A DNA stretch of 64,000 bases, taken from assembly GCA_937966555.1 (NCBI GenBank), contig CALCLY010000036.1, positions 122,116 through 186,115 of the forward strand, read 5' to 3'. The position numbers and the translations under genes were made by a program. The stretch is from an uncultured Clostridia bacterium. Its GTDB lineage: Bacteria > Bacillota > Clostridia > UMGS1883 > UMGS1540. The notes under the pieces are model-generated. The model made no database searches and was not told the DNA's origin. It worked only from the letters and a program-made list of their open reading frames with translations. Positions 1,525-25,469 of this stretch are shown one piece after another. How positions within the stretch are numbered: the stretch's first letter is position 1; every line of letters begins with the position of its first letter.

Positions 1525-2748
1525 TTATACCGTAACACCTTTTTCGACCGCTTTATATAAATTGTGTTTCTCCATATCGTGCTCAAAATCTTCTGCCGTG
1601 TAATTATCGTCACGGCGAAATTTATGCTTTAAGTCCTTTGCCAGTCTTTTTGCTTTTTCCGCAAATTCCTCCGATATAACTCCCTGCGACTTTTCGGCAC
1701 GGATACAACTGCACCGCCTGTTATAAATATCCGTAATTTTATCATTTTTCGCAAGCTCCTTTTGGTTGTTCTTCGCCGCAAACTTTCTGCAAGTGATTCT
1801 TTCGCCGTCGGTAAGTTCAAGCGGCGCAAAACCCATACAATACTTTTGCTTTCTCGCATTTTCCATAAGGAAGTATGTTTCGCAAATTTCGCATTGCCTC
1901 GGATAATGTCCAAACAAAAGTCCTTCAAAGAAATCAGTTAGGATAAAGCTGTAAAATGTTTCAAAATGAAGCCTTTTTACCAACGCTTTCTTATTGCCCT
2001 TTGGAACGGCAATATATTCGGTTGTTATGTTAAATTGGGCTTTATCAAAAATTTTGTTTGCAAGTGTTAAAAGCTCACTTTCGTTGTAATGCTCCAAATC
2101 ATCCAAGCTCCAAACAAACTCCGTCAAATGTTCAAATGCTTTCATCATATCGTTACCGATATTTTCGTAAAATCTCAATATCCGTATTACAAATCCGATA
2201 AATTCGTTTGCCTTTTTTGAAAGCTCCGCATATCCGTCGGGTAGTATGTCAAGCAGCATTGCACCCTCATCTTGCGTGGATACCTTTGCTCTTTGCCTAT
2301 AATAGTCCAATATGAAGTCTGCATTTTCCTTTGTAAAGGTTTCGGATATTGTTTTTCTCTCGCTTTCAATATCCAGATAGCAGAACGGACTGAAATTTGG
2401 GAGTACATCAAGAATATACAAAATCTCTTTTCCAGTCCTTACAAATTCATAATCGTTTATATAACCTCTTTCCATTGAGGAGGACAATATGTGATTGTCA
2501 AAGGTCATTGCGGCTATCCTTGCACCGTTGTCATTTTCCTCATATCGGTTAAGAAAATCGACGGCAAAACTGCCGACAGTAAATTTATTTTTGTCTATGA
2601 AGGTAAACTTATCTCTGTAATCAACTGTGAAAAACTCTATTTTATCCGGCATATCGAACACCTCAAAACTTTTCAATTTTTTTTGCAAACTTTTATTGCG
2701 AAATATATTTCGTATATCTATTATACCATAACTTTGCTTGTATTTCAA
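1525..2748 (-). CDS. Hypothetical mobile-element protein with a C-terminal Cys cluster (CxxC...YC...C). A truncated homologue lies at 14373..15005.
   Basis: 407-aa ORF overlapping the sigma-like gene by one codon. The C-terminal motif HYPRQCEICETYF...QKYC...ITCRKF parallels KPCKCCGHYF...EYC...PCNEF in the 14373 ORF. Confidence 0.5.
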   Translation of the reverse strand: MKYKQSYGIIDIRNIFRNKSLQKKLKSFEVFDMPDKIEFFTVDYRDKFTFIDKNKFTVGSFAVDFLNRYEENDNGARIAAMTFDNHILSSSMERGYINDYEFVRTGKEILYILDVLPNFSPFCYLDIESERKTISETFTKENADFILDYYRQRAKVSTQDEGAMLLDILPDGYAELSKKANEFIGFVIRILRFYENIGNDMMKAFEHLTEFVWSLDDLEHYNESELLTLANKIFDKAQFNITTEYIAVPKGNKKALVKRLHFETFYSFILTDFFEGLLFGHYPRQCEICETYFLMENARKQKYCMGFAPLELTDGERITCRKFAAKNNQKELAKNDKITDIYNRRCSCIRAEKSQGVISEEFAEKAKRLAKDLKHKFRRDDNYTAEDFEHDMEKHNLYKAVEKGVTV

Positions 2749-3376: not shown

Positions 3377-3664
3377 ATGAATGAGAGAACAACCGCAATT
3401 TATGTGCGTGTTACCGAAAAAGAAAAATCACGCATAAAACAAAAAGCAGACAAGTGCGGTTTATCGCAATCGGAGTATTTAAGAAAGAGAGCTTTGGGAT
3501 ATTCGCCCAAAGCTCTTTTGCCGGAAAGCTTTTATGAATTTTCGAGTAAGCTCGGCGAAGTGTATGAGCAAATCAACAAGGAATATAACACAGAAGTTGA
3601 GGAAAAACTTTTATCCCTGCTTGATGAAATTCAGCTAAAGCTACTGACACCCGAAAACGAATAA
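3377..3664 (+). CDS. mobC: Relaxosome accessory protein MobC (ribbon-helix-helix).
   Basis: 95 aa, AIYVRVTEKEKSRIKQKADKCGLSQSEYLRKRALG, which is MobC-like. It lies directly upstream of the relaxase with an RBS. Confidence 0.7.
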   Translation: MNERTTAIYVRVTEKEKSRIKQKADKCGLSQSEYLRKRALGYSPKALLPESFYEFSSKLGEVYEQINKEYNTEVEEKLLSLLDEIQLKLLTPENE

Positions 3665-3671
3665 AGGAGGT

Positions 3672-5890: not shown

Positions 5891-5902
5891 GGTGAGTTTT
5901 AT

Positions 5903-6085
5903 ATGACAAAACAAGCTAACAGTCTATACGAGTTTTTTTCTCCGACTTTAGATAAGGACAATTTGGATTTTGAATTAAAAATCGGCGGTACAACCTACGA
6001 GATATGCACTCGCTTTAATATCAATGGCAAACAAAGCATATTGGAGCAGTTCAAAAACTTGATTTTATCAGAAAATTTGATTTAA
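5903..6085 (+). CDS. Small hypothetical protein (60 aa) between the ParB-like gene and the serine recombinase gene.
   Basis: ORF only, tightly packed in the operon. Confidence 0.3.
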   Translation: MTKQANSLYEFFSPTLDKDNLDFELKIGGTTYEICTRFNINGKQSILEQFKNLILSENLI

Positions 6086-6123
6086 TACATTCGACAATTT
6101 GTGTCGGGCATAGTAAAATAGCA

Positions 6124-7860: not shown

Positions 7861-7870
7861 CAAGGAAAAT

Positions 7871-7900
7871 GGAGTAGCTCCTTGATTTTGGAACTACTCC
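7871..7900 (+). terminator. Hairpin 10 bp after the serine recombinase stop (an 11-bp stem with one mismatch and an 8-nt loop). It could be a terminator or part of the element-end recombination site.
   Basis: ggagtagctcc-ttgatttt-ggaactactcc. Confidence 0.4.
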
Positions 7901-7976
7901 ATAAAAAACTTCCTTATCTGGCGTTGGCAAACGTCAACCGACTTTTTAAACAGCCCCTTTTCGTTTTTTTTATTTA

Positions 7977-13189: not shown

Positions 13190-13516
13190 ATGAAACTTGT
13201 ATTGGCAATTGTAAGTAACGATGATACCGGGGCGGTTGTTCCTGAACTTATTAAAGAAGGATATTCGGTTACCACGCTTTCAACCACAGGCGGGTTTTTG
13301 AGAGTGGGAAATACAACGCTTTTGGTTGTGACTGAAGATGAAAAGGTAACTCAGCTTCGCGATCTTTTTGCTAAATATTGCTCGTCAAGAAAAAAGGTAA
13401 ACCCCTCAACATCTTCTTTTGGAAAGAATATGCTGTCGGACAGTCCGGCTGAGGAAGTTTCCGTAGGCGGCGCAACATTTTTTGTTTTAAATGTTGATAA
13501 AATGGAAAAATTCTGA
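13190..13516 (+). CDS. darA: Cyclic-di-AMP receptor DarA (YaaQ family, PII-like).
   Basis: 108 aa. MKLVLAIVSNDD...TTGGFLRVGNTTLLVV...VGGATFFVL matches the YaaQ/DarA pattern. Confidence 0.65.
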   Translation: MKLVLAIVSNDDTGAVVPELIKEGYSVTTLSTTGGFLRVGNTTLLVVTEDEKVTQLRDLFAKYCSSRKKVNPSTSSFGKNMLSDSPAEEVSVGGATFFVLNVDKMEKF

Positions 13517-14017: not shown

Positions 14018-14109
14018 GGACGGGTATCGAAGTGGTCATAACGGGGCTGACTCGAAATCAGTTTGTCGGTAATACCGGCACGTGGGTTCGAATCCCACCC
14101 CGTCCGCCA
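14018..14109 (+). tRNA. tRNA-Ser (anticodon CGA).
   Basis: 92 nt. The acceptor stem is GGACGGG/CCCGTCC with discriminator G and an encoded CCA. The anticodon loop is CTCGAAA, a long variable arm is present, and the T-arm is GGTTCGAATCC. Confidence 0.85.
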
Positions 14110-14112
14110 ATT

Positions 14113-14160
14113 ATGCGGGTTTGCTTAACTTTTGCGAACCCGCATTTACTTTATGTTTTT
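14113..14160 (+). terminator. Rho-independent terminator after the tRNA.
   Basis: Stem atgcgggtt/aacccgcat followed by a T-rich tract. Confidence 0.5.
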
Positions 14161-14372
14161 TGCCCAATTTTGCCTTAAACCTCACCATTATTCGTTACCG
14201 TACAGTAATTCAAGCGGCTTGAAATACGGTATAATTATACTGCACACATTGTCGCGATAGCCGCTGTATGTAGTAAGCTGAATACTCGGTTTGACGCGTT
14301 CAAGCCATTGCTGCATTTATCGAATACCTTGCCGAGGGAACAGATAAAGCTCTTGCGGAATTTACGGCGTTT

Positions 14373-15005
14373 ATGGGCAGTGATTTTGCAGCGCCTCAAA
14401 AAGATTCGGCGCATTATATGATGAATTTTATCAATGCTATGACGGCAAGTATTGAGCAGAAAAAAGCTGAAATCAAGTTTTATATAAATGATATTATGAA
14501 AGATAAAAACGGTTCCCTTAATCAGCGTTTTGTAAACTGCGGAAAAGAGAGCAAACTGTTTGATTTTCAATTTGATTCGCATTTTGATTTTGAAAACGAT
14601 GTAATTATCTATCCTCTCGAAACTATGGATGATGTAATTCGCTTTGATATTATGCAGATGCTTGCAAATAAGATTAAATTCAAGCCGTGCAAATGCTGCG
14701 GTCATTATTTTGTGCCCGGCGGGCGCACGAACAGCGAATACTGCGACAGAATTATGCCCGGCGAAACAAGACCTTGCAATGAGTTCGGCGCACTTAAAAC
14801 ATTTGATATCACTCATAAAAACGACGATATTCATAAAGCCTATATCACCGCTTACCGCCGTATGGACTCACGCCAGCGCGCAAAGCTCATCACTAAAGAT
14901 GAATTCAAGCAGTTCGGCAAAATTGCCCGTGCCGAGCGTAAAAAATGCTATAACGGCGAAATAACTCTTGATCAGTTCAAAACTTGGCTTGATGATTTTA
15001 GATAA
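14373..15005 (+). CDS. N-terminally truncated homologue (210 aa versus 407 aa) of the mobile-element protein at 1525..2748. It is probably a remnant of an element once integrated at the tRNA.
   Basis: It shares the C-terminal Cys-motif architecture, and there is an in-frame stop at 14292-14294 upstream with no earlier start. It is 264 bp downstream of the tRNA-Ser 3' end. Confidence 0.45.
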   Translation: MGSDFAAPQKDSAHYMMNFINAMTASIEQKKAEIKFYINDIMKDKNGSLNQRFVNCGKESKLFDFQFDSHFDFENDVIIYPLETMDDVIRFDIMQMLANKIKFKPCKCCGHYFVPGGRTNSEYCDRIMPGETRPCNEFGALKTFDITHKNDDIHKAYITAYRRMDSRQRAKLITKDEFKQFGKIARAERKKCYNGEITLDQFKTWLDDFR

Positions 15006-15016
15006 ATGTATAGCGA

Positions 15017-15046
15017 AAGCAGCAGATTGCGGTCTGCTGCTTTTGT
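15017..15046. terminator. Bidirectional hairpin terminator between convergent genes.
   Basis: Stem agcagcag/ctgctgct with an 8-nt loop and a flanking T-run. Confidence 0.5.
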
Positions 15047-15049
15047 GGA

Positions 15050-18000
15050 TTATACTCTGTTTGAAGTTCTATATGTTTCCTGTGCCAATGTAGCCATAAC
15101 CGTATCATAAAAGCGTTTATCCTCAAACAATTTTGAAAACGCCTTCATCTGTTCCATATAACAGTCCTGCGCAACCTGTTTGAACACTTCGGGAAATATT
15201 GACTTTGTATAAACTTCCTCATCATTTTTCTGTGCCTGACGGTTTAGTTTCTTATTTTCCTTTGCTCTGTTGTAAAGTGTTTCAACAATAACTCTGTCAC
15301 CCTCCGAAAAAATACCGTCAAACCGTTCATTTATTTTGCTGATAATTTCTTCAAGCAAAGCATCTTCTTCGGACATAAATCCGGCCGTTTTTAATGACTT
15401 CGGATTTTCGAGTGTTTTTGTTGCTTCCGTCGGTGCTAAACTAATATCTCCGTGAAAATCCTCTTGAATTTTATAGTATTCAAGTTTCAGCTTATCCTCC
15501 AAATCAACATTGCGTGTGTCGCTGACCGGCGGCAGCATTTTTTCAAGGTACTGCGTATATGTGTATTCCTCCTGCAAAGACCTGTCAAACATCCTGCTTA
15601 TCTGCGTAATATATGAATACCACTTATTAAAATTTTTAACCGTTTTCTTGACCTCAAATCTATCTTCCTCACTCATCGCCTCATATCTTGCCACAACGGG
15701 TTTTAAAAGGCTTGTGAGCTTTCCCAAATCGCTGTCATTTTGGTCTTTTTTTAAAAATATCTTTAAAAATTCCTGTATATCATTTTCGTCATATATTCCT
15801 TTTTGACGGAGAAGCTGTCTTGTATCGTAAATCATATTGACATTGATTTCTTCATCAAGATATGTAGCCTCGTAGTACGGCTCAAAGGCTTTTTGTATGT
15901 CCTCTGCTGTGTTTACAAAATCCAGTACAAATGTATCTGTTTTGCCCGGACAGGTTCGGTTAAGCCTTGAAAGGGTCTGCACGGCTTTGACATCTTTCAG
16001 TTTTTTATCGACAAACATTGTGTGCAGCAACGGCTCGTCAAATCCTGTCTGATATTTTTCCGCAACAACAAGCATTGCATATTCGTCTTTATTAAATTCG
16101 GACGGCAGCTGACTTTCTTTTATGGTCGTTCCGTCCTTTCGCTTGTTCAAGCCTTCTTCGGTGTACTCAAATTCGCCGTCTTTCACAACGCCCGAAAAGG
16201 CAACAAGAATTTCAACATCATCATATCCGTGACTTTCAATATAGCGTTTCATCTCGTGATAATATCTTATTGCGTGAAGCCGCGACGCCGTTACAACCAT
16301 TGCTTTTGCTCTGCCGTTTATTTTATTTTTTGTAACGCTTCTGTATGTTTCAATAATAATGGCGGTTTTCTGTGCAATGTTGTGAGGGTGCAGTTCCTTG
16401 TACCTCAAAACAGCCTTTACTGCTTTGTTTGCCGGCACTTCGGGGTTGTCCGGCGTTTGTTTTGCAATGCGATAACAGGTTTTATAGTGCATAAAATTTT
16501 TCAGTACATCTAAAATAAAGCCCTCTTCAATAGCTTGTTTCATAGAATAAATATGAAACGGTCTGAAACCTTTGCCATTTTCTCTTGGTGTGCCGAATAT
16601 TTCAAGCGTTTTTTCTTTCGGCGTGGCGGTGAAGGCAAAAAACGAAAGGTTTTTGTGTTTCCCGTGCGACAGCATTTCGTCAACAAGCTTGTCCTCTTGG
16701 TCTTTCACCTCATCTTCCGCAATACCTTCAAGCTCGGCATATTCTTTTAATGCGTCCTCTGTGTCGGCAAGAGCAGTTTTCAATTTTGCGGCATTTTTCC
16801 CTGTCTGCGAATTGTGAGCCTCATCAACTATAACTGCAAACCGCCTGTCTGTTGTGTCATCAATTTCATTGTATATATACGGAAATTTCTGAATTGTTGT
16901 TATAATAATTTTCTTTCCGTTGTTTATAGCCGCTTTTAAATCTGCTGAATGTTTGTCATCATCAATTTTTTCGACAACGCCTTTTGTATGGTCGAATCCG
17001 TAAATTGTGTTCTGTGTTTGGCGGTCAAGTACAGTACGATCATTGACAACTATAACAGATGTGAATATAGGTTTGTTGTCCTTATCGTGCAGTTCGGTAA
17101 GCTGATAGGCAAGCCAAGCAATGGAATTGCTCTTGCCGGAGCCGGCGGAGTGCTGAATAAGGTAATTATGCCCCGAACCGTTGTCCTTAACATCTGCGAC
17201 CAGCTTTGATACAACATCTAACTGATGAAATCGCGGAAATATCAGTTTAACCGATTTCTTTTTGACTTCTTTTCCGTTTGAATAGACAATCTTTTCTTCC
17301 TCAACTCTCTGCAAAAACCTTTGAAGTATATTTAAAAGACTGTCCTTTGTCAAAACCTTTTCCCAAAGGTAGCTTGTGGCGTACCCGTTTTTGTTTTCGG
17401 GGTTTCCTTTGCCGCCGACATTTCCGGCGCCGTTTGAGCCTTGATTAAACGGCAGAAAAAATGTTTTTTCTCCGTCGAGCTTTGTTGTCATTGCAACTTC
17501 GTATAAATCAACGGCGAAATATACAAGAAAACGGTTGTCAAAGCGAAAACAAAACTCTTTCGGATTTCTGTCCGTCATAAATTGCTTTTTTGCATTTGCA
17601 ACGCTTTGTCCCGTTAATTGGTCTTTCAGCTCCAAAGCAACAACAGGTATTCCGTTTACGGACAGCACCATATCAATAGAATTTTCATTTTCGGTTGAAT
17701 ATTTAAACTGCCTTGTGCAGGTTACAATGTTTGAATTGTAATCGGCAAGAACGGAATCGTTGAGCGTTGTGTTTTCTTTGAAAGAGACAATTTTTATTTT
17801 TGCACCCCTATCTTCAAAGCCGTGCTTTAAAACATAGGTCAATCCGAACGTGTCAACACATTCCTGAAAACGCTTGTATAATCTCTTTTCAGCGTCTGCA
17901 CCATAATTTCTTTCGTACTTTTGCCACTCTTTCGGCTGCGTTGCCTTTATGTATTGTATCAGTTTTGGCAGGTCAATGGAAGTTTCCCGGTTATATGTCG

Positions 18001-18082
18001 ATAAATCGCCCTTTGTATATCCGCCGCAGTTTAACATATAGCTTTCTATGTCCTGCTCAAAGCGTTTTTCTTTTATATTCAT
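15050..18082 (-). CDS. hsdR: Type I restriction enzyme R subunit.
   Basis: 1010 aa with an N-terminal HsdR nuclease region, helicase motifs including DEAH (AVIVDEAHNSQTG), and a C-terminal HsdR domain. Confidence 0.9.
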   Translation of the reverse strand: MNIKEKRFEQDIESYMLNCGGYTKGDLSTYNRETSIDLPKLIQYIKATQPKEWQKYERNYGADAEKRLYKRFQECVDTFGLTYVLKHGFEDRGAKIKIVSFKENTTLNDSVLADYNSNIVTCTRQFKYSTENENSIDMVLSVNGIPVVALELKDQLTGQSVANAKKQFMTDRNPKEFCFRFDNRFLVYFAVDLYEVAMTTKLDGEKTFFLPFNQGSNGAGNVGGKGNPENKNGYATSYLWEKVLTKDSLLNILQRFLQRVEEEKIVYSNGKEVKKKSVKLIFPRFHQLDVVSKLVADVKDNGSGHNYLIQHSAGSGKSNSIAWLAYQLTELHDKDNKPIFTSVIVVNDRTVLDRQTQNTIYGFDHTKGVVEKIDDDKHSADLKAAINNGKKIIITTIQKFPYIYNEIDDTTDRRFAVIVDEAHNSQTGKNAAKLKTALADTEDALKEYAELEGIAEDEVKDQEDKLVDEMLSHGKHKNLSFFAFTATPKEKTLEIFGTPRENGKGFRPFHIYSMKQAIEEGFILDVLKNFMHYKTCYRIAKQTPDNPEVPANKAVKAVLRYKELHPHNIAQKTAIIIETYRSVTKNKINGRAKAMVVTASRLHAIRYYHEMKRYIESHGYDDVEILVAFSGVVKDGEFEYTEEGLNKRKDGTTIKESQLPSEFNKDEYAMLVVAEKYQTGFDEPLLHTMFVDKKLKDVKAVQTLSRLNRTCPGKTDTFVLDFVNTAEDIQKAFEPYYEATYLDEEINVNMIYDTRQLLRQKGIYDENDIQEFLKIFLKKDQNDSDLGKLTSLLKPVVARYEAMSEEDRFEVKKTVKNFNKWYSYITQISRMFDRSLQEEYTYTQYLEKMLPPVSDTRNVDLEDKLKLEYYKIQEDFHGDISLAPTEATKTLENPKSLKTAGFMSEEDALLEEIISKINERFDGIFSEGDRVIVETLYNRAKENKKLNRQAQKNDEEVYTKSIFPEVFKQVAQDCYMEQMKAFSKLFEDKRFYDTVMATLAQETYRTSNRV

Positions 18083-18085
18083 AGG

Positions 18086-20026
18086 TTAGACCTCCTTAAT
18101 AACTGTCTTTTTACCATAGCCTTTCGGAACAAGATTAAGTGCTCGCATTTTATCTATAGCACGGAGCCATACATCTTTACTAAATCTCCTTTTACTTTTG
18201 TGCCAATTATTAAGAATGTCATTTATTACATCATCATCTGTAAATGTTTTTTTATCAATCAAGAAATCATTCCAAGCCCCATACAAAGTGGCAATAATCT
18301 CTGCTTGGTCTGTGTCAAAATTATCAAAAATGGCTATAATTCGCTCGATTTCCGTATTGTAATTAGCAAAGTAATCATTATAATACTTTTTATATTTATT
18401 TACATTCTTTGTGGCTTTATAAGATACACCATAATTACTTGAAATGATATTAAACCACTTATTATTTTTGCTTATTATTGCTTCACAGCTGTAAAGAGAT
18501 TTATCAAAAGGACCTGCCGCTTCTCTGGTATATTCTGTTTCAAAATTAAATCCAATATGCTGCTCTATCACATAAAGCGTTTTTTCAAGTTTTACCCTGC
18601 CTTTATTATTATTTGATGTAGCAAGAATTTTACTCATAAGAACTGCTTGTGCAAATCTTGATTTTTTTGCATTATAAACAGCAGGATATATAGGAATAAC
18701 ACTTATGATGATATTATCATTATTCTTTGACATCAAAGCATCCTTTTTTCCTGTCACATATTCATAGATAAGTGACTTTTTGTATTCTTCCAAATTTGTA
18801 ATAAGTTTTTCTTTTTCTAAAATGATATTGTCTATTTCAGCACATTTACTATCAAGAAAAGCAATTATTTCCTTTTGTGTTGATATAGATGTATATATTA
18901 TTGGAGAATTTTTTATTGCATCAGCACTCATACCCTCTCTGTTACCGCCTGTTTGATACAAATTGACAGACATTTTTCCCAATGAAGATAACCAATAATA
19001 GTGCATATACTCCGGAAACATTATATCCTGTTTTAATCTTATAATACTGACATGCTGATTTACATTTGCCTTGCCATAAGATTTATCATATATACAACAT
19101 CTTCCAATAGATCCTCCGGTTATGTTTAAAAGTACATCTTTATCCATAACTCTTGTATTTTTCATTTCTTCGTCTATTTCTTCTGAAATGTAAGTGGGGT
19201 CGTCTAATACAAGTCCTGTATCATAAACATTTTGACTTCGCAAGAACAATACACCTTCACTTGAATAAACATCTCCACCGCCTTTTGGCGTTTTTCCGCT
19301 TCCAACTTTTGTAACACAAGACTTGATTTTTCCTAACCGCCAATCAACAGGTATTTCACCTATCCACTCAATGCCGCTATCTTTCATTGGCACATTTTTA
19401 TCAAGTCCTTTTGTGACGGCTTCTGTTATAACCGACTGCTTATACTCCTTGTAATTTTCAATACTTGCCTTTGTTTCGGAAATGATTTTATCTATTTCTG
19501 TAACCTTGCTGTCAAGGAAATCGGCTATTCTTTTCTGTTCGGGTAACAGCGGAACAGGTATATAGTAATTCATCAGCGTTTCTGTCGATAAAGTCCAGCG
19601 GTTATCATAAGAAACCCCCTTGCCGTGCGCAAAAAAAACCATTGCCCAATATTGTGTTTTAAAATAATAATCATAAAATACAGGGTAATAATTTTTGTTT
19701 GCTTTTAAGTTTATGTAGGCAGGACTAATAACGCCATAGACTTTGGATATACTGCAATTTGCACCACTGTATAAGTCCATAGGGTTTAAAAGTAAATCAA
19801 AAGGTTCCACAGGGTTGTAATTATAATAACTTTCCGCAATCTGACCTTCTCCTGTTGATACATCTCTAACTTTAACACCGCTTCTTGCAAGCGAAAGAAT
19901 AGTAGGCTCTTCTTGCTGTGCTTTTTCGTTTTTTCTGGTAAAAGCATTTTTTACCCTGCCTATTTTCCACTCACTCGGAATATCGCCTATCCACTCAACG
20001 CCGCTGTTTTTCATTTCTCTTGTCAT
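18086..20026 (-). CDS. hsdS: Type I R-M specificity subunit: two TRDs plus a non-canonical ~220-aa C-terminal extension.
   Basis: 646 aa. The conserved HsdS central and distal helices are LPEQKRIADFLDSKVTEIDKII and IIAFLDSKCAEIDNIILEKEKLITNLEEYKKSL. An extra AT-rich C-terminal domain is encoded by 18086-18754. Confidence 0.85.
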   Translation of the reverse strand: MTREMKNSGVEWIGDIPSEWKIGRVKNAFTRKNEKAQQEEPTILSLARSGVKVRDVSTGEGQIAESYYNYNPVEPFDLLLNPMDLYSGANCSISKVYGVISPAYINLKANKNYYPVFYDYYFKTQYWAMVFFAHGKGVSYDNRWTLSTETLMNYYIPVPLLPEQKRIADFLDSKVTEIDKIISETKASIENYKEYKQSVITEAVTKGLDKNVPMKDSGIEWIGEIPVDWRLGKIKSCVTKVGSGKTPKGGGDVYSSEGVLFLRSQNVYDTGLVLDDPTYISEEIDEEMKNTRVMDKDVLLNITGGSIGRCCIYDKSYGKANVNQHVSIIRLKQDIMFPEYMHYYWLSSLGKMSVNLYQTGGNREGMSADAIKNSPIIYTSISTQKEIIAFLDSKCAEIDNIILEKEKLITNLEEYKKSLIYEYVTGKKDALMSKNNDNIIISVIPIYPAVYNAKKSRFAQAVLMSKILATSNNNKGRVKLEKTLYVIEQHIGFNFETEYTREAAGPFDKSLYSCEAIISKNNKWFNIISSNYGVSYKATKNVNKYKKYYNDYFANYNTEIERIIAIFDNFDTDQAEIIATLYGAWNDFLIDKKTFTDDDVINDILNNWHKSKRRFSKDVWLRAIDKMRALNLVPKGYGKKTVIKEV

Positions 20027-21795
20027 TTGCTTTCACGCTCCTCAAACAATGCTTTAAGCGAAGCAGTGATACTTGCCTCCTGCGAGCTTATAATTTCTGC
20101 GATTTCATCGGAACTTCTCGGAGCCTGATATTTATAAAAATATCTTGTAAAAGGTATTTCATAGCCAACCTTTGTTTTGCTTTTATCTATCCACGCCGCC
20201 GCATTATACGGTTTTACCTCTCTTGCAAAATAGCTGTCTATGTCCTCCACAAGCGGAACGTTTTCATAATCCCGTTTTGAAGTGTCGGGGACAGGCTGGT
20301 TTTTCTTGCCTTTGGTTACGATTTCTCCGTTTTCATCATACAGCGGGCTTTCAATTTGAATACGGTTAAAGCCGAAATCCTCATTATTGAAAATTTTGCT
20401 TTCACACACTTTTCCGTCAAAATCATATTCCTTTGTCCTGTAATCTCCGTAAACCTTAACGATAGCCTCACGGCATTTGTCGGTTATATCGTATCTTTTA
20501 TTTCCGATATTTTTTCTGCGCTGTTCCGCCATTTTGGACGCGTCTATAAGCTGAACCTTGCCCTGCCTATGCAGAGGTTTATTTTTTGAGATTATCCATA
20601 TATATGTTGTAATTCCCGTATTATAAAATACATCTGTTGAAAGCTGAATTATACAGTCGAGCCAGTCATTCTCTATCATATATCGGCGGATTTCGCTTTC
20701 GCCGCTTTCAGCCGCACCGGTAAAAAGCGACGAGCCGTTATGTATAATCGCCATTTTGCCGTCATCTTTCAATTTTGCAATTCCGTTTAAATCAAACAGC
20801 ATTTGCCCGTCGGATATTTTGGGCAAGCCGACGCCGAATCTGCCATTGTCGCCCAGAGCGTGCTCCGCTTCAACCTCTCTTTTTGCGGTTTTCCATTCGA
20901 TACCGAACGGCGGATTTGAGATGATATAATCAAATTTATAATTCGGAAATTTATCATCCGAAAGCGTATTGCCAAGCTTCATATTATCTGCATTGCTGCC
21001 ATGAATAAGCGCAGAGGACTTTGCAATAGCAAATGTTTCGGGATTTAACTCCTGCCCGAATGTTCTTACGTCAGCCTCGGAATCAAGAGCCTTTAACCGC
21101 TCCGTCATACAGGTGAGCATTTGAGAAGTACCCATTGTCATATCATAAACCGTCTTTGCAACGCCTTCTTCAATTAAAAGGTCTTTATCTTCGGAAATAA
21201 GAATATCGGTCATAAGATATATAATATCTCTCGATGTGAAATGCGCTCCGGCTTGTTCGTCATAACTTTCCGAAAATCTCTTTATCAAATCCTCAAAAAT
21301 ATATCCCATATCAACGGAAGTAATTTTATCTGCTCCCATATAGGCACTCGGTTTATTAAACGCCTCTATGACGAGGAATAAAAGACCGTTATTTGCAAGT
21401 TTTTTGATTTCGTTGTCAAATTCGTAATTTTCCAAAATGTCCTGCACATTTTCAGAATATCCCATTATATAATTGCGGAAATTATCTTCAATATGCGTTG
21501 CGTCTTCGGTCAGCTTCCCGAAATCATATTTGCTGATGTTGTAAAATGAGTAGCCGGCGGCACGCTCCAAAAAGCCGGATTTAACTTCAAGGTGTTTTAC
21601 ATTTTCGTATGTTTCCAAAACCTTATCCTTTGTCGGAATAAGGCAGTCGTTAAATCTTTTCAAGACGCAAAACGGCAAAATTACTTTTCCGTATTCGTGC
21701 GGTTTGTAATAATCACGCAACAGGTCAGCAACGCTCCAAATCAAGTTTGATTTTTCCTGTATATTTGTTGTGGTTTGTGTAAGTAATTCTGACAT
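20023..21795 (-). CDS. hsdM: Type I R-M N6-adenine DNA methyltransferase subunit.
   Basis: 590 aa with an HsdM N-terminal domain and the catalytic motif NPPFG (IISNPPFGIEW). Its stop overlaps the hsdS start by 4 bp. Confidence 0.9.
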   Translation of the reverse strand: MSELLTQTTTNIQEKSNLIWSVADLLRDYYKPHEYGKVILPFCVLKRFNDCLIPTKDKVLETYENVKHLEVKSGFLERAAGYSFYNISKYDFGKLTEDATHIEDNFRNYIMGYSENVQDILENYEFDNEIKKLANNGLLFLVIEAFNKPSAYMGADKITSVDMGYIFEDLIKRFSESYDEQAGAHFTSRDIIYLMTDILISEDKDLLIEEGVAKTVYDMTMGTSQMLTCMTERLKALDSEADVRTFGQELNPETFAIAKSSALIHGSNADNMKLGNTLSDDKFPNYKFDYIISNPPFGIEWKTAKREVEAEHALGDNGRFGVGLPKISDGQMLFDLNGIAKLKDDGKMAIIHNGSSLFTGAAESGESEIRRYMIENDWLDCIIQLSTDVFYNTGITTYIWIISKNKPLHRQGKVQLIDASKMAEQRRKNIGNKRYDITDKCREAIVKVYGDYRTKEYDFDGKVCESKIFNNEDFGFNRIQIESPLYDENGEIVTKGKKNQPVPDTSKRDYENVPLVEDIDSYFAREVKPYNAAAWIDKSKTKVGYEIPFTRYFYKYQAPRSSDEIAEIISSQEASITASLKALFEERESK

Positions 21796-21820
21796 TGTAA
21801 ATTTCTCCTTTATTTATAGT

Positions 21821-23209
21821 TTAACGTATCATATCTCCATACTCGACCAAACTAACATTACCCATCTCACTTGCCTTATCTTCACAGCCTTTTGTAAAGC
21901 CTGATTTTGAGAACAGATAATAATATTTAGTTTTGTAATTGAACAGTTCGCTTCGTTTAACAAGTGTTTCCAACACGCCGAGATCGACCTTTTCGTTTGT
22001 CCATTTACATTCCGCAAAAAGGGCAGTGTTTTTGTCCTGCTCGCCCATAATGTCGATTTCTTCCTGACGCTTTTCTTTCGGATTATTGCCCCACCAACGA
22101 CCGAGAGCCGTAAACTCAACAGGGCAGTTGCCGGAAAGGAGCTGTTTCCACAGATACTGTTTACAGATTTCCTCAAAAACCTTGCCCATATAGTCCGAAA
22201 GCTGCGGCTCAATACGCTTATATGCCAAATCTGCGGCGCCGCGGGCGATGATTGAATTATTTTCAAACACGAACCGATACCAAAAGCGGAACATATTATC
22301 TTCAATCGAATAAACCGACTTTCGAGAAGCTTTTTCGCCGTACGGTGTTTCTTTCTGCACAATTCCCAAATTGATCAAATTTTTGAGATACATTGCGCAA
22401 ACATTGGTATCTTCGCCGACCTTGCCCGAAATCTCCGACATTCTCGACGCTCCCGTTGCAATAGCGGCAATTATCGCCGTATAGATTGCCGGTTCTCTGA
22501 CTTCCTGTTTCAAGAGGTTTATCGGCTCTTCATACAAGAATGAAACGGGGTTCAAAAATGTATCTTTGATATTATCCTCAACGCTCAATGCGTCATTAAT
22601 CTGCAATAGATACTGCGGAGTACCGCCGACAACCCCATAGATAAGCGCTTTATCTTCGGCAGTGAAATTTTTGAAGTAGCGGCAGGTTTCCTCAAAGTCG
22701 AACGGCAAAAGTTTTATTTGCGCCGTTCTTCTGCCATAAAGAGGTGCTTTATAGGCGAGAACGTGATCTTCCATATACGACATTGACGAACCGCAGAGAA
22801 TCAGCATCAGCTTTGATTTATCCTTATATTTATCAATCAAAAGTTGCAGGGTAGAGGCAAGACTCTTTGACGAGCGTGCAACATACGGGTATTCGTCGAT
22901 TGCAAGAATGATGCGTTCTTTTTCGGCAAGTCGGAACACATATTCGAGTGCCGATTGAAACGACGAGAATATGCTGTCAATCTCCGTACCGCTGACATAC
23001 TCCATAATGCTCTTTGAAAAATTTTCGAGATTTTGCTTTGCATTACTCTCAACACCCATAAAATAAATAGCATTTTTATCATCAATAAATTTGTTGATAA
23101 GTGCGGTTTTACCCACACGGCGTCTGCCATAGATAACCGCAAATTCAAATTTATCCGATTTGTATAATCTTTCAAGAGCTGAAAGCTCTCGCTGTCTGCC
23201 TATAAACAT
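21821..23209 (-). CDS. AAA-type ATP-binding protein (ATPase + DUF234 architecture).
   Basis: 462 aa with Walker A GRRRVGKT and a Walker B-like ILAIDEYP. It is co-directional with the hsd operon and 25 bp upstream of it. Confidence 0.7.
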   Translation of the reverse strand: MFIGRQRELSALERLYKSDKFEFAVIYGRRRVGKTALINKFIDDKNAIYFMGVESNAKQNLENFSKSIMEYVSGTEIDSIFSSFQSALEYVFRLAEKERIILAIDEYPYVARSSKSLASTLQLLIDKYKDKSKLMLILCGSSMSYMEDHVLAYKAPLYGRRTAQIKLLPFDFEETCRYFKNFTAEDKALIYGVVGGTPQYLLQINDALSVEDNIKDTFLNPVSFLYEEPINLLKQEVREPAIYTAIIAAIATGASRMSEISGKVGEDTNVCAMYLKNLINLGIVQKETPYGEKASRKSVYSIEDNMFRFWYRFVFENNSIIARGAADLAYKRIEPQLSDYMGKVFEEICKQYLWKQLLSGNCPVEFTALGRWWGNNPKEKRQEEIDIMGEQDKNTALFAECKWTNEKVDLGVLETLVKRSELFNYKTKYYYLFSKSGFTKGCEDKASEMGNVSLVEYGDMIR

Positions 23210-23334
23210 AATTCAACCTCCAATTCGAGTTATTATCATTATATCATAATTTTTATAAATAGTCAAGTGTAATTGAGTAACTTATAATTTGATAAATGTG
23301 TTTTACTTATAACTCCGAACACATCTCCAAACAT

Positions 23335-23535
23335 CTATTCAATATGCTCGCTGTTGATTTTTAATAACTGCGACTTTACAACCTCTCTTGAGAAATCATT
23401 TCCGGCGATGCGTACCGTTTTGGAATTACCGCATATAGTTTCCGCCATAACACTCACAAGTTCATCAAGTATATCGCCGCTGTACCTCTCGCAAAGAATG
23501 TCATAATCAATATTTTCTTTTATCCGATTCGTCAT
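23335..23535 (-). CDS. Small hypothetical protein (66 aa).
   Basis: ORF only. Confidence 0.3.
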   Translation of the reverse strand: MTNRIKENIDYDILCERYSGDILDELVSVMAETICGNSKTVRIAGNDFSREVVKSQLLKINSEHIE

Positions 23536-23599
23536 CGCATCTATCTCGTTTTCTGTGATTGATAGATTGATGTTGTTAAAAGAATTATTAATATTTTTA

Positions 23600-23750
23600 T
23601 TTATATATTGATTGGGTGCACACTGTTCACTGCGTGGTGCAGATATTTCACTACCCGGTAGTGAAGGCTGTTCATCAGGTGGTGAATTATATTAATTACC
23701 CTGTGGTGCAGGCATTTCACCGGGCAGAGAAAAATCAGGTATTCCGATAA
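23600..23750. repeat. Iteron-like direct repeats GGTGCA-N4-(T/G)TTCAC (three copies) plus related half-sites. The position is typical of a replication origin or operator.
   Basis: The three copies are ggtgcacactgttcac, ggtgcagatatttcac and ggtgcaggcatttcac, with inverted gtgaa half-sites between them. They lie next to the Rep-like HTH gene. Confidence 0.4.
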
Positions 23751-24030
23751 GCACTTCATAGTCGTTAGCTGTATGATCACCCTTGCTGCTTCTTCGTTCA
23801 GTCTTTTTTATGCAGCCCAATGTCACAAGCTCGCTTATAATATCAATAACCTTTCGCCTGCTGATTCCGCTGTCATCAGCAATCGTCTGATAAGACGGAA
23901 AGGCAATATTACTGCTGTTTGAATAACTGCAAATTACGCTGAGAACCACCTTGTGCAGCGGCTTTAATGTATGGCTCCTCAAAATATTATTCGGCATTTG
24001 TGTAAATCCCGTATCGTATGTAATTTTCAT
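23692..24030 (-). CDS. Replication-initiator/replisome-organizer N-terminal-like HTH protein.
   Basis: 112 aa. FTQMPNNILRS...VLSVICSYSNSSNIAFPSYQTIADDSGISRRKVIDIISELVTLGCIKK is a pattern typical of plasmid/phage Rep N-terminal winged-helix domains. Confidence 0.5.
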   Translation of the reverse strand: MKITYDTGFTQMPNNILRSHTLKPLHKVVLSVICSYSNSSNIAFPSYQTIADDSGISRRKVIDIISELVTLGCIKKTERRSSKGDHTANDYEVLIGIPDFSLPGEMPAPQGN

Positions 24031-24245
24031 TCTCGCTCAACTCCTTCCGGGTAAACATATTCGGCAAGCACAAGTTCCTCCGCATAATGCCTTGCAAAAT
24101 TCATACGCCGAACCCATTCCATTTGGTCGGTGCAAGTCGAACCGATGCTTTTTCTGAATTTGCTTATGATGTCATCATAATAGTTTATGACTGCATAGTA
24201 CAGTCCTTTCTTCTCTCGTATAGTTCCTGTTACATTTTTGCTCAA
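24027..24245 (-). CDS. Small hypothetical protein (72 aa).
   Basis: ORF overlapping the downstream gene start by 4 bp. Confidence 0.3.
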   Translation of the reverse strand: MSKNVTGTIREKKGLYYAVINYYDDIISKFRKSIGSTCTDQMEWVRRMNFARHYAEELVLAEYVYPEGVERE

Positions 24246-24336
24246 TTTTTAGACCTCCTTTGTTTTTTGAGAGAAAAAACAAACACCTATCATTGACATT
24301 ACTATTATATCAACAATAGGTACCAAACGCAAAAAA

Positions 24337-24528
24337 TCACGATGTTGTTTTATTTTTTCTCATCAAGAAATCAACTACACTGATTTTTGTTATACAATAC
24401 TCTCGACCGACTTTTATACTTTCGATTTTGTTTTCACGAAGTAATTTATATCCTGTTTTTGTACTTATACCGCCGAGAACTTCGCACATATCTTTAATTT
24501 TCAGCACATCGGGATAATTTTTCATCAT
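24337..24528 (-). CDS. Excisionase-family (Xis/MerR-like) DNA-binding protein.
   Basis: 63 aa. LKIKDMCEVLGGISTKTGYKLLRENKIESIKVGREY is an excisionase-type HTH. Confidence 0.55.
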   Translation of the reverse strand: MMKNYPDVLKIKDMCEVLGGISTKTGYKLLRENKIESIKVGREYCITKISVVDFLMRKNKTTS

Positions 24529-24796
24529 TGAAAGAAGGATGAAGTAGAAGCAAAAACTATCGTCTTGGCGTATCTGCCGCTTGGCTCGTCCATACCGGAA
24601 TGTATCTGTTGCCGTTATACTGCACCGCCGTTATCTTGCGTGCTTTCTTTGTAAAAAATTATATTGCGGTTTTGGGCATTGAAAACTTATTGATGATGTT
24701 GCTCGCAATGTTTTTCTCCGGCTGGTCGAGAGTGTCTATAATTTCAGTAAGCACTCTTTCTTCATCATAGGATAAATACCGGAAAACTCTGTTGTG

Positions 24797-25003
24797 TTAA
24801 GCCTCCATCAAGAATATTCCGCCGTTTACACCGCTTTTTACACGGATGGGAGCGTAACGACCTAAAAAGGTAATATCGTTATATACCGTGTTTTTATGTA
24901 CGGAATACCTTTTTGATAATTCGGACAAAGTAACTTTTTTTGAACTTATTATAAAAAACAGGATTTCTATCCGTCTTTCAAAGGTAGACAATTTACCTGT
25001 CAC
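24797..25003 (-). CDS. Small HTH (HTH_11-like) DNA-binding protein. It probably starts at GTG and is translationally coupled to the upstream basic-protein ORF.
   Basis: GGAGG lies 9 nt upstream of GTG (MTGKLSTFERRIEILFFIISSKKVTLSELSKRYSVHKNTVYNDITFL). Confidence 0.45.
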   Translation of the reverse strand: MTGKLSTFERRIEILFFIISSKKVTLSELSKRYSVHKNTVYNDITFLGRYAPIRVKSGVNGGIFLMEA

Positions 25004-25235
25004 AGCCGTTACACCTCCTTCCAAAAAACATTCTAACATTTAATGTCACAAGCTCATTGTAACTTTCAAAAAATAATTTCATAATTTCACCCTTTTGTGT
25101 AAATTTTGTTGAATTTGCACAAGAGAGAGGCGGAGCACGGCTGTGATACGGTGGCGGTTTTCTGTGATGTTTTCCCGAAGATTTGCGGTTATGTCCTTTA
25201 GGCTTATGCTTTTTGCGCTTTGCTCTGTGCTTCAT
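24993..25235 (-). CDS. Small, highly basic (K/R/H-rich) protein of ~80 aa.
   Basis: MKHRAKRKKHKPKGHNRKSSGKHHRKPPPYH..., with a GGAGG RBS 8 nt upstream. It overlaps the downstream GTG start by 8 nt. Confidence 0.35.
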   Translation of the reverse strand: MKHRAKRKKHKPKGHNRKSSGKHHRKPPPYHSRAPPLSCANSTKFTQKGEIMKLFFESYNELVTLNVRMFFGRRCNGCDR

Positions 25236-25361
25236 AAAGTGTCCTCCGTGCCGCAGGGCATATCCGACAAAAAGCATAATTTTGTCCTATGCAGGGCAAT
25301 TTTTTGTTTATGCGGTAATCGCTTTCGCTTCCTTTGCTTTGTAATATCATATAAAAAGGCA

Positions 25362-25412
25362 CAAAAAAAGCCGCCCGGCAATAAAGGCGTTTTGCCTCTA
25401 TACCGGGCGGCC
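25362..25412 (-). terminator. Rho-independent terminator of the surface-protein gene.
   Basis: Stem gccgcccgg/ccgggcggc, followed on the minus strand by a T7 run. Confidence 0.55.
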
Positions 25413-25469
25413 TGCTGTGCCGTCGTTTGTCCTCATTTTAAGAGAACGGTTTTAATATTAAGCTTTGTT

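What the first reader, a model, noticed from the sequence alone, without database searches (positions are those of the whole stretch)
14110..25400. Probable genomic island at the 3' end of tRNA-Ser(CGA): truncated mobile-element gene, type I R-M operon, AAA ATPase and a decayed replication/excision module
Immediately downstream of the tRNA is a 210-aa N-terminally truncated homologue (14373..15005) of the 407-aa element protein at 1525..2748. It shares the same C-terminal Cys motif.

The hsdM-S-R operon and the DUF234 ATPase follow. After them come a Rep-N-like HTH protein flanked by iteron-like repeats, an excisionase-family HTH, a small HTH protein and a highly basic mini-protein. No integrase remains, and a 270-bp ORF-free stretch at 24529-24796 may be its decayed remnant. 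The composition shifts toward AT. The whole reads as a defence island built on a degraded integrative element.
Basis: partly seen in the sequence, partly recalled or inferred. Interest (0 to 1): 0.5.

Follow-up and report, generated by a model that had tools for sequence, protein, structure and literature searches.

The report
Fossil mobile element hosting swappable restriction genes
Next to a serine tRNA gene of a human-gut Oscillospiraceae bacterium lies the dead remnant of an integrating mobile element; it still carries a working-looking type I restriction system, and sister strains hold other defence cassettes in exactly the same slot, so this is a fairly ordinary defence island with an instructive history.

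Summary
tRNA-Ser(CGA) at 14018-14109 is followed by about 11 kb of strain-variable, AT-shifted DNA. It holds a 5'-truncated DUF6076 gene, a complete hsdM-S-R operon, an ATPase_2/DUF234 ATPase (PADLOC candidate PDC-S27) and a decayed Rep/HTH module.

- The integrase relic is a 42-codon ORF at 14188-14316, right beside the tRNA, not at 24529-24796.
- That ORF-free stretch is the dead 3' part of an HTH_11 gene plus intergenic DNA.
- The "Rep HTH" and DUF6017 ORFs are one 231-codon gene broken by a TAA. The "iterons" lie inside its linker.
- The 210-aa protein is residues 108-317 of 317-aa relatives. It shares only the Pfam family with the 407-aa protein at 1525-2748.

An intact 8.9-kb relative (L025/L048) has the same gene order with attL and attR. 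The window has neither an attR nor an intact integrase, so the island is immobile.

At least eight other assemblies carry the same fossil scaffold. Their cargo differs exactly between 15047 and 21827: other type I systems, type III, and type III plus a Hachiman-like helicase. Divergence is highest next to the slot, which points to cassette import by homologous recombination.

In passing: intact relatives split the host tRNA at its anticodon loop and carry a complete replacement tRNA.

The parts
14018..14109 (+). tRNA-Ser(CGA). This is the integration target and the left border of the island.
   Evidence: ARAGORN and Rfam tRNA at 53 bits. Homology to the empty-site strain L004 stops at 14113.
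14110..14187 (+). Integrase-proximal arm of the old attachment site. It holds a hairpin at 14113-14145 (about -20 kcal/mol) and a tandem arm-type-like repeat, TTTTGCCCAATTTTGCCTTAA, at 14158-14178.
   Evidence: About 99% identical to the DNA between the tRNA and the integrase gene in L002/L006. Similar repeats flank the tRNA in L021 and L025.
14188..14316 (-). Tyrosine-integrase relic, a 42-codon ORF. It consists of integrase residues about 82-118 (numbering of the 394-aa L021 integrase) fused to the last few codons.
   Evidence: tblastn: 37 aa are 100% identical to the L002 integrase (aa 167-203), 97% to L021, and 59-65% to L007 and L025. The nucleotide alignment shows an internal deletion of about 806 bp relative to L002.
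14307..15005 (+). 5'-truncated DUF6076 gene. The ORF is 14373-15005 (210 aa) and homology begins at 14307. The deletion junction with the integrase relic is at about 14318.
   Evidence: Pfam PF19553. The ORF corresponds to residues 108-317 of 317-aa relatives. tblastn with L021/L007 aa 86-317 matches 14307-15002. The same breakpoint occurs in L037-L039.
15013..15046 (.). Hairpin (-22.7 kcal/mol) between the convergent DUF6076' and hsdR genes. It marks the left edge of the variable cargo slot.
   Evidence: Fold. Strain homology stops at 15043-15047.
15048..21826 (-). Cargo slot, here holding a type I restriction-modification operon: hsdM 20023-21795, hsdS 18086-20026 and hsdR 15050-18082.
   Evidence: Pfam. 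PADLOC hits MTase_I (E=2e-224), Specificity_I (E=2e-105) and REase_I (E=4e-34). Other cassettes occupy this slot in L031, L032, L035, L037, L038 and L039.
18086..18741 (-). About 215 extra C-terminal codons of HsdS (30% GC). L031 has a PIN gene and a 208-aa gene in this place.
   Evidence: HsdS residues 1-428 are 98% identical to the 431-aa L031 HsdS. PADLOC profile PDLC03088 covers residues 468-639. No Pfam family matches.
21821..23209 (-). ATPase_2 + DUF234 ATPase (PADLOC candidate defence gene PDC-S27). It is the conserved right flank of the cargo slot.
   Evidence: Pfam. PADLOC PDC-S27, E=8e-67. 87% aa identity to the gene at the same position in the intact element L025/L048.
23238..23266 (-). 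Strong sigma-70-like promoter (TTGACT, 17 nt, TG, TATAAT) upstream of the ATPase-hsdMSR gene string.
   Evidence: Best hit of the promoter scan, 11 of 12 matches. This is a consensus match only.
23335..24030 (-). Rep-like gene (HTH_36 + DUF6017), a pseudogene. It is one 231-codon frame with a TAA at 23692-23694. Imperfect repeats at 23626-23686 encode its proline-rich linker.
   Evidence: Translation. L025 Rep aa 1-223 aligns in one frame at 59% identity. The gene is intact at 231 aa in L031-L033, L035-L037 and L039. PHROG replication initiator, E=6e-21.
24027..24245 (-). 72-aa ORF with a weak match to the TnpV C-terminus. It has its own ribosome-binding site.
   Evidence: Pfam TnpV scores 24.7 bits, below the cut-off of 27. 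The protein is identical in about 23 contigs. No nonsynonymous differences occur between strains.
24337..24528 (-). HTH_17 / excisionase-family DNA-binding protein, 63 aa. L033 and L035 carry a 92-aa form because of a homopolymer difference at 24358.
   Evidence: Pfam and NCBIfam TIGR01764. 57-59% aa identity to the integrase-adjacent Xis of L005. The indel is shown.
24674..25003 (-). HTH_11 regulator gene, truncated by a TAA at 24797-24799.
   Evidence: The 112-aa L005 homologue aligns over 25003-24674 in one frame at 40% identity. The N-terminal HTH resembles that of WYL regulators.
24993..25235 (-). 80-aa, very basic ORF of no known family. It is probably not under purifying selection.
   Evidence: pI 10.9. 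No family hit. pN/pS is 0.2-2.3 between strains.

Best explanation
The island is the immobilised fossil of a small tyrosine-integrase element that targeted tRNA-Ser(CGA).

Intact family members, such as the 8.9-kb L025/L048 element, have this gene order:
- tRNA, then integrase, Xis and DUF6076 (divergently transcribed);
- a variable defence cargo;
- the DUF234 ATPase, then small genes and MobC;
- a Rep-like HTH_36-DUF6017 protein, TnpV and an HTH_17 protein;
- attR.

In the window's lineage two deletions removed most of the integrase, the whole Xis gene and the first 107 codons of DUF6076. The att sites are gone. The Rep-like and HTH_11 genes carry nonsense codons. The element can therefore no longer excise, replicate or transfer.

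What still looks functional is one gene string on the minus strand: the DUF234 ATPase (candidate defence gene PDC-S27) followed by hsdM, hsdS and hsdR. It lies behind a strong promoter-like site at 23238-23266 and ends at a hairpin at 15013-15046. By established type I R-M biology, the HsdM2S complex methylates the bipartite site read by the two HsdS target-recognition domains. With HsdR, the complex translocates and cuts unmodified incoming DNA.

The fossil also serves as a docking site. The truncated DUF6076 gene on one side and the ATPase/Rep genes on the other act as homology arms. Cassettes carried by mobile relatives are swapped in through these arms by homologous recombination.

Shown: anatomy, decay, strain polymorphism and the divergence gradient. 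Inferred: expression, R-M activity, and recombination as the swapping mechanism.
For: Island status:
- The empty site in L004 and different integrase elements at the same tRNA in L001, L002 and L005-L009.

Family membership:
- The integrase relic is 97-100% identical to the L021/L002 integrases.
- DUF6076' is 98% identical to the 317-aa P0001.
- The ATPase is 87% and the Rep-like protein 59-68% identical to the L025 proteins, in the same order.
- L025 has attR, a 72-nt tRNA repeat at 17151-17222.
- The tRNA-Ser/integrase/Xis/DUF6076 module is present in seven further Clostridia MAG loci. The ATPase lies 2-10 kb beyond DUF6076 in L043, L044, L045 and L048, and about 8 kb beyond it in the DUF6076 fragment L049.

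Decay:
- Searches show the deletions and nonsense codons.
- No tRNA-derived repeat lies elsewhere in the 64 kb.
- No arm-type repeat lies at the right end.

Intact cargo:
-.
- Copies identical over the retrieved span occur in contigs from several independent assemblies.

Cassette swapping:
- L031-L039 match the window at 96-98% up to 15043-15047 and from 21827-21839 onward, but hold different cargo between those points.
- The L039 cargo is 79-85% identical at the nucleotide level to the cargo of the mobile elements L007 and L023.
- Divergence is 0-1% far from the slot and 4-11% next to it, on both sides.
- DUF6076' alleles differ by pS 0.12-0.20 while pN/pS is 0.05-0.09. Neighbouring core DNA is only about 1% divergent.
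Against: - The right border is not defined by any att site. No strain in hand joins the tRNA directly to the SLH gene cluster, so the island's right-hand extent (about 25235-25424) is inferred.
- In strains without the island, the tRNA and the SLH cluster have different neighbours: GatD/MurT in L004, and IS200/KhpA/rpsP in L015 and L016. A larger rearrangement is therefore involved and remains unexplained.
- The HTH_17 and HTH_11 genes resemble the integrase-proximal module of a different element (L005) more than they resemble the right end of L025. The right end may thus come from a second element.
- The low pN/pS of the truncated DUF6076 gene could mean it is still functional, rather than reflecting imported alleles.
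- Expression and restriction activity were not tested.
Confidence: 0.8

Rival explanations
1. The island is a tandem composite. An L025-like element (14110 to about 24300) is followed by the stump of a second, L005-like element (about 24300-25300). A deletion removed the first element's right end, the att site between the two, and the second element's integrase.
For: - The window's HTH_17 is 57-59% identical to the L005 Xis, and its HTH_11 is 40% identical to the next L005 gene. Order, orientation and the intervening gap all match L005.
- The L025 right-end genes (TnpV of 116 aa, HTH_17 of 91 aa) find no match in the window.
- Nested and tandem elements are common at this tRNA.
Against: - The 72-aa ORF has its own ribosome-binding site and promoter-like sequence and is perfectly conserved. 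It therefore does not look like a deletion stump.
- In L033 and L035 a 92-aa HTH_17 abuts the 72-aa ORF, just as HTH_17 abuts TnpV in L025.
- No tRNA fragment lies between the parts.
- This rival changes only the history of the right end, not the main reading.
Confidence: 0.3
2. The island is still mobile. It would be excised and transferred in trans by an integrase and conjugation machinery from co-resident elements, as a cis-mobilisable element.
For: - Other tyrosine-integrase elements use the same tRNA in this species.
- The relaxase/serine-recombinase element at 1-7905 lies only 6 kb away.
- The integrase-proximal arm repeats survive at 14158-14178.
Against: - There is no attR, no second arm and no tRNA-derived repeat anywhere in the window.
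- The MobC gene seen in L025 is absent.
- The same deletion junction is fixed in all island-bearing contigs.
- The only other context found is L046, which has its own separate decay.
Confidence: 0.05
3. The region is not a horizontally acquired island. It would be an ancestral chromosomal region whose restriction genes happen to vary between strains.
For: - The scaffold is shared by many strains and always lies next to the same SLH gene cluster.
- The GC shift is modest.
Against: - Strain L004 has an empty site and is 98.7% identical to the window up to the tRNA.
- The region holds an integrase relic and Xis-, Rep- and DUF6076-type genes.
- Near-identical modules in other species lie between tRNA-derived repeats.
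Confidence: 0.03

Closest known systems
Defence hotspots of P4-like satellites and P2-like prophages in E. coli (Rousset et al. 2022, PMC9122126; Moura de Sousa et al. 2026, PMC13586616)
   Same: - A small tRNA-integrated element carries one slot, bounded by conserved element genes.
- Unrelated anti-phage systems are swapped in that slot between otherwise near-identical elements.
- Homologous cassettes also occur in other mobile elements and in cryptic chromosomal remnants (abstract read).
   Different: - The host is a different phylum, and the element shares no genes with P4 or P2. Its flanks are DUF6076 and the DUF234 ATPase.
- There are no phage or satellite genes, and the family is almost absent from viral contigs.
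- Here the platform itself is dead, with no integrase or att sites, yet its cargo still varies.
Classical tRNA-associated genomic islands with tyrosine integrases (Islander database concept, PMC4383910)
   Same: - It lies at a tRNA gene, with the integrase next to the tRNA.
- Presence or absence varies between strains.
- Intact relatives are bounded by a tRNA-derived direct repeat.
   Different: - In the window the integrase is a 42-codon relic and the displaced tRNA fragment is missing. Island-finding methods that rely on those marks would not call it.
- In intact relatives the regenerated tRNA is not a hybrid. It is a whole element-borne gene.
tRNA-dependent lysogeny of actinobacteriophages (Guerrero-Bustamante and Hatfull 2024, PMC10865867)
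   Same: In relatives of the island, the host tRNA-Ser(CGA) is cut at the anticodon loop and only about 7-8 bp (CTCGAAA) are shared at the junction. The host gene is not rebuilt. The element brings a complete tRNA of the same isotype 27-200 bp inside its end.
   Different: - These are not phages. They are small integrative elements carrying defence cargo in gut Clostridia.
- Dependence on the tRNA was not tested.
- The window's own fossil no longer shows the orphan half.
Cassette-like variation of restriction genes in the E. coli Immigration Control Region (Sibley and Raleigh 2004; recalled from memory, not read here)
   Same: A fixed chromosomal locus where alternative hsd and other restriction cassettes replace one another between conserved flanks by homologous recombination.
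   Different: Here the flanks are remnants of a mobile element rather than core genes, and mobile relatives with the same flanks are identifiable as likely donors.

Membership tests
tRNA-targeting integrative element / genomic island (tyrosine-integrase type) | Located directly at a tRNA gene, and absent from that site in some strains of the same species | tested here: met
   tRNA at 14018-14109. In L004 the site is empty and homology ends at 14113.
tRNA-targeting integrative element / genomic island (tyrosine-integrase type) | Intact tyrosine integrase gene | tested here: not met
   Only 37 integrase residues plus the last codons survive, at 14188-14316. There is no other integrase-like sequence in the island.
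tRNA-targeting integrative element / genomic island (tyrosine-integrase type) | Direct repeat of part of the tRNA at the far end (attR) | tested here: not met
   No copy was found in the 64 kb with up to 3 mismatches or by short-word BLAST with four tRNA alleles. The feature is present in the intact relative L025.
tRNA-Ser / int / xis / DUF6076 / cargo / DUF234 ATPase / Rep(HTH_36-DUF6017) element family (defined here from L025/L048) | Same genes in the same order and orientation | tested here: met
   The integrase relic, DUF6076', the ATPase (87% aa) and the Rep-like gene (59-68% aa) are collinear with L025. Xis, MobC, TnpV (116 aa) and HTH_17 (91 aa) have no match.
Type I restriction-modification system | Full-length HsdM, HsdS (two target-recognition domains) and HsdR encoded together | tested here: met
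   Pfam, PADLOC and NCBIfam hits cover all three proteins. The genes abut or overlap.
Type I restriction-modification system | Sequence-specific methylation and ATP-dependent cleavage of unmodified DNA | not testable with these tools
   Needs a methylome or restriction assays.
PDC-S27 (PADLOC candidate single-gene defence system) | Match to the PDC-S27 profile over most of its length | tested here: met
   E=7.7e-67, residues 2-429 against profile positions 4-440 of 474. According to PMC12988326, most such candidates lack experimental validation.
Defence hotspot inside a mobile element (P4/P2 type) | Conserved flanks with unrelated defence systems between them in closely related copies | tested here: met
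   At least five distinct cassettes lie between window positions 15047 and 21827: type I (at least two versions), type III, type III plus a HamB-like helicase, and type III plus unknown genes.
Integrative mobilisable element | Own integration module plus an oriT/relaxase or relaxase-accessory gene | tested here: not met
   The window has no integrase and no relaxase or MobC. L025 has a NikA/MobC-like gene.
tRNA-dependent integration (as in tRNA-dependent lysogeny) | Host tRNA split without reconstruction, and the element carries a complete tRNA of the same isotype | tested here: inconclusive
   By sequence this is met in L001, L005, L007-L009, L021, L025, L041-L044, L047 and L071. It is not visible in the window, where the tRNA sits at the native position with no orphan half. 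Functional dependence on the tRNA cannot be tested here.

The most novel reading that the evidence does not exclude
The island would be the fossil of an undescribed family of Clostridial integrative elements. No paper in the searchable library mentions DUF6076 or DUF6017.

These elements insert into the anticodon loop of tRNA-Ser(CGA). They orphan the host gene's 5' half and supply a complete replacement tRNA with its own promoter. That would make host survival depend on the element, as in the 'tRNA-dependent lysogeny' so far shown only for actinobacteriophages.

They also carry a defence-cassette slot between DUF6076 and a PDC-S27 ATPase. After losing integrase and att sites, the fossil would be kept by the species as a recombination dock that continues to sample defence cassettes from mobile relatives. 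Repeated insertions at the element-borne tRNA would pile up orphan tRNA halves, three in L008.
Probability: 0.5. Interest if true: 0.6.

Novelty: new member of a known kind. Interest (0 to 1): 0.4.

Why it matters
- It gives a worked example, in an uncultured human-gut Oscillospiraceae species, of how restriction and other defence genes end up fixed in a chromosome. A small mobile element delivers them and then loses its mobility genes. The stump remains as homology arms through which strains keep exchanging defence cassettes.
- It shows that integrase- and att-based island finders would miss such loci.
- It points to a compact element family with a well-defined cargo slot. Seen so far in that slot are type I and type III R-M, an OLD-like nuclease, SIR2-pAgo and a Hachiman-like helicase. 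The slot could be mined for new defence genes.
- The family may extend tRNA-dependent integration beyond phages.

Tried and rejected
- Search for an attR: the last 25 nt of the tRNA with up to 3 mismatches, and short-word BLAST of whole tRNAs and halves from four alleles. Only the tRNA itself and the unrelated tRNA-Ser genes at 59.4-59.6 kb matched.
- Arm-type repeat TTTTGCCC at the right end: none found.
- Integrase relic in 24529-24796: tblastn with seven integrases at E<=1 found nothing there.
- Iterons: Tandem Repeats Finder found nothing in 23300-24100. The imperfect repeats seen by the repeat finder lie in the coding linker of the Rep-like gene. L025 has comparable 21-24-nt repeats in the same linker. 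They could still act as an internal origin, as in RepA_N plasmids (from memory), but they do not flank the gene.
- TnpV fragment next to KhpA in L016 as the possible other end of an inversion: no similarity to the island at E<=1e-4 in tblastx or E<=1e-5 in blastn.
- Phage or satellite nature: only two distant hits in 2.9 million viral contigs.
- Other RNA genes: Rfam finds only the tRNA.
- One context look-up failed because the start codon was guessed wrongly.
- Literature searches for DUF6076 and DUF6017 returned nothing.
Full report
**Observation**

ARAGORN and Rfam place tRNA-Ser(CGA) at 14018-14109.
- a 210-aa DUF6076 protein (14373-15005, + strand);
- hsdR (15050-18082), hsdS (18086-20026) and hsdM (20023-21795), all on the minus strand;
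- an ATPase_2+DUF234 protein (21821-23209);
- a DUF6017 fragment (23335-23535) and an HTH_36 protein (23692-24030);
- a 72-aa ORF with a weak TnpV match (24027-24245);
- an HTH_17 excisionase-family protein (24337-24528) and an HTH_11 protein (24797-25003);
- an 80-aa ORF with pI 10.9 (24993-25235).

The island has 38.5% GC, against 42.8% for the core genes to its left and about 48-50% to its right. The 407-aa protein at 1525-2748 is also DUF6076. It aligns with the 210-aa protein only at 29% over 59 residues, with the four Cys in register. It belongs to a separate element at 1-7905 that encodes a relaxase, a ParB-like protein and a large serine recombinase.

**It is an island**

Contigs that encode the identical cyclic-di-AMP receptor gene (13190-13516) come from the same species. 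That species is an uncultured human-gut Oscillospiraceae, and the contigs are 98-99.5% identical to the window from ackA to the tRNA. They differ sharply after the tRNA.
- L004 has no mobile genes. Homology to the window ends at 14113 and the tRNA has its own terminator.
- L001, L002 and L005-L009 carry various tyrosine-integrase elements.
- L003, L011 and L012 are identical to the window.

**Left end**

Window 14110-14208 equals the DNA between the tRNA and the integrase stop codon in L002. Window 14209-14318 equals an internal piece of that integrase gene.
- The 42-codon ORF at 14188-14316 (minus strand) encodes 37 residues that are 100% identical to the L002 integrase and 97% identical to the L021 integrase.
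- At 14318 this piece is joined directly to DUF6076 codon 86 or so of the full-length 317-aa genes.
- The nearest homologues are all 317 aa, and the window ORF starts at their Met108.
- In intact modules (L007, L021, L023, L025, L040) the order is tRNA, integrase, a 63-66-aa Xis, then divergently DUF6076.

Two deletions account for the window's left end. One of about 0.8 kb lies inside the integrase gene. One of about 0.9 kb spans the integrase 5' end, Xis and the DUF6076 5' end.

**Right-hand module**

The HTH_36 and DUF6017 ORFs are one reading frame of 231 codons, interrupted by a TAA at 23692-23694.
- The 269-aa Rep-like protein of L025 aligns across the stop in a single frame at 59% identity.
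- The gene is intact at 231 aa in seven sister contigs.
- The intact form matches phage replication-initiator families at E=6e-21.
- The "iteron-like" repeats at 23626-23686 encode its proline-rich linker. L025 has 21-24-nt repeats in the same place.

The 270-bp "ORF-free stretch" contains no integrase-like sequence. The 112-aa HTH_11 protein of L005 aligns over 25003-24674 in one frame, through a TAA at 24797-24799. About half of the gap is therefore the dead 3' part of that gene. Strains also differ there by homopolymer indels.

**Intact relative and family**

L025/L048 (Clostridia MAGs) carry an 8.9-kb element at tRNA-Ser(CGA) downstream of a tadA-like deaminase gene (as in the window). Its gene order is:
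- integrase, Xis, DUF6076 (+ strand);
- an OLD-like ATPase-nuclease;
- the DUF234 ATPase (87% aa identity to the window's);
- small genes and a NikA/MobC-like gene;
- Rep (HTH_36-DUF6017), TnpV and HTH_17;
- a 72-nt repeat of the tRNA 3' portion at 17151-17222.

A scan of 185,579 species genomes found the tRNA-Ser/integrase/Xis/DUF6076 module in seven further Clostridia MAG loci from human and ruminant guts. In L043, L044, L045 and L048 the ATPase lies 2-10 kb beyond DUF6076. In the DUF6076 fragment L049 it lies about 8 kb beyond. In L046, from another genome, the module has decayed independently with a different junction. The window has no tRNA-derived repeat or arm-type repeat at its right end. 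It therefore cannot excise.

**The cargo slot**

Contigs that encode the identical 72-aa ORF show the same fossil scaffold next to the same SLH gene cluster in many samples. They match the window at 96-98% up to 15043-15047 and again from 21827-21839. Between those points the cargo differs:
- the window's type I system;
- the same type I system with PIN and 208-aa genes in place of the HsdS C-terminal extension (L031);
- another type I system (L037);
- type III R-M (L032, L039);
- type III R-M plus a Hachiman HamB-like helicase (L035);
- type III R-M plus unknown genes (L038).

The DUF6076 truncation point is the same in all of them, so truncation preceded cargo diversification. The L039 cargo is 79-85% identical at the nucleotide level to the cargo beside full-length DUF6076 in the mobile elements L007 and L023.

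Divergence from the window is 0-1% in the tRNA-proximal part of the left flank and beyond 24027 on the right. It rises to 4-11% next to the slot on both sides. DUF6076' alleles differ by pS 0.12-0.20 with pN/pS 0.05-0.09, whereas neighbouring core DNA differs by about 1%. This pattern is what import of cassettes with adjoining flank DNA from diverged donors would produce.

**Function**

PADLOC calls a complete type I system and assigns the ATPase to PDC-S27, a candidate defence gene without published validation. A near-consensus promoter-like site at 23238-23266 precedes the ATPase-hsdM-hsdS-hsdR string. A hairpin at 15013-15046 follows it. Expression and activity are inferred.

**Unresolved**

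In strains without the island, the tRNA is followed by GatD/MurT (L004). The SLH cluster is followed by a different surface-protein gene, IS200, a TnpV fragment and KhpA/rpsP/ffh (L015, L016). The SLH gene at 25470-28664 is itself missing in L031 and L036. The island thus sits at a rearrangement junction, and its right border is inferred rather than mapped. The HTH_17 and HTH_11 genes resemble the integrase-proximal module of L005, so the right end may derive from a second element.

**Side finding**

In at least 13 loci from several species, the host's tRNA-Ser(CGA) position holds only the first 40 nt, ending at the anticodon loop CTCGAAA. After it comes a 27-200-bp spacer with arm-type-like repeats and a promoter-like AAAATTTAATAT. 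A complete tRNA-Ser(CGA) of a different allele follows, and then the integrase.
- L008 has three orphan halves in a row.
- In L039 another element has split the island's own tRNA, leaving its 3' half in front of the integrase relic.
- This matches "tRNA-dependent lysogeny" (PMC10865867), here in non-phage elements.
- The window, L002, L006 and L046 lack the orphan half. Recombination between the two 5' halves could have removed it.

**Verdict**

The finding is real and its interpretation is essentially right. The kind of object is known: a decayed tRNA-associated integrative element that acts as a defence hotspot. The element family appears to be undescribed.

Noticed in passing
L001 10829-11119; L007 6138-6426; L008 10861-11402; L021 8019-8309; L025 7999-8288; also L041-L044, L047, L071: Elements at tRNA-Ser(CGA) leave an orphan host 5' half (40 nt, ending at the anticodon loop CTCGAAA). 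They bring a complete tRNA-Ser(CGA) of another allele, with a promoter-like spacer, just inside their end. L008 has three orphan halves in a row, suggesting successive nested insertions. This resembles the tRNA-dependent lysogeny of actinobacteriophages (PMC10865867).
   Followed up: partly
window 1-7905: A second, unrelated mobile element is inserted beside ackA. It encodes a sigma-70-like protein (659-1522), a 407-aa DUF6076 protein (1525-2748), a MobA/VirD2 relaxase (3672-5048), a ParB-like protein (5045-5890) and a large serine recombinase with DUF4368 (6124-7860). It is absent in L001, L002 and L004, where homology starts at 7905-7929. Its left end lies outside the window.
   Followed up: partly
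window 25424-28654 and 28571: The 1064-aa SLH / Listeria-Bacteroides-repeat surface protein gene (25470-28664) is itself variable. It is missing in L031 and L036 and replaced by a Cu_amine_oxidN1 gene in L015 and L016. In L015 and L016 the SLH cluster neighbours IS200, KhpA, rpsP and ffh instead of tRNA-Ser, which implies a large rearrangement between strains.
   Followed up: partly
window 18086-18741 (HsdS residues about 432-646): HsdS carries a 215-aa, 30%-GC C-terminal extension with no Pfam family. A PADLOC 649-aa Specificity_I profile covers it. In L031 the same HsdS ends at 431 aa and is followed by a PIN-domain gene and a 208-aa gene instead.
   Followed up: partly
L046 9465-10642: In another Clostridia genome the same tRNA/integrase/Xis/DUF6076 module has decayed independently. 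The integrase is in pieces, only a fragment of Xis remains, and the junction is 12 nt upstream of the same internal Met. Both decays keep the C-terminal 210 residues of DUF6076. Together with pN/pS of about 0.06, this raises the possibility that the C-terminal zinc-ribbon domain works on its own.
   Followed up: no
L023 11029-20954 and L024: In a relative with the same integrase/Xis/DUF6076 module, the cargo is a type III R-M system followed by a SIR2-domain gene and a Piwi-domain (short pAgo-like) gene. L025 carries an OLD-like AAA_15/TOPRIM nuclease instead.
   Followed up: no
window 59412-59619: Two further tRNA-Ser genes (GCT and TGA anticodons) lie in tandem on the minus strand. Their 3' ends match the element-borne tRNA-Ser(CGA) alleles of L005 and L007 exactly over 29-30 nt.
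   Followed up: no
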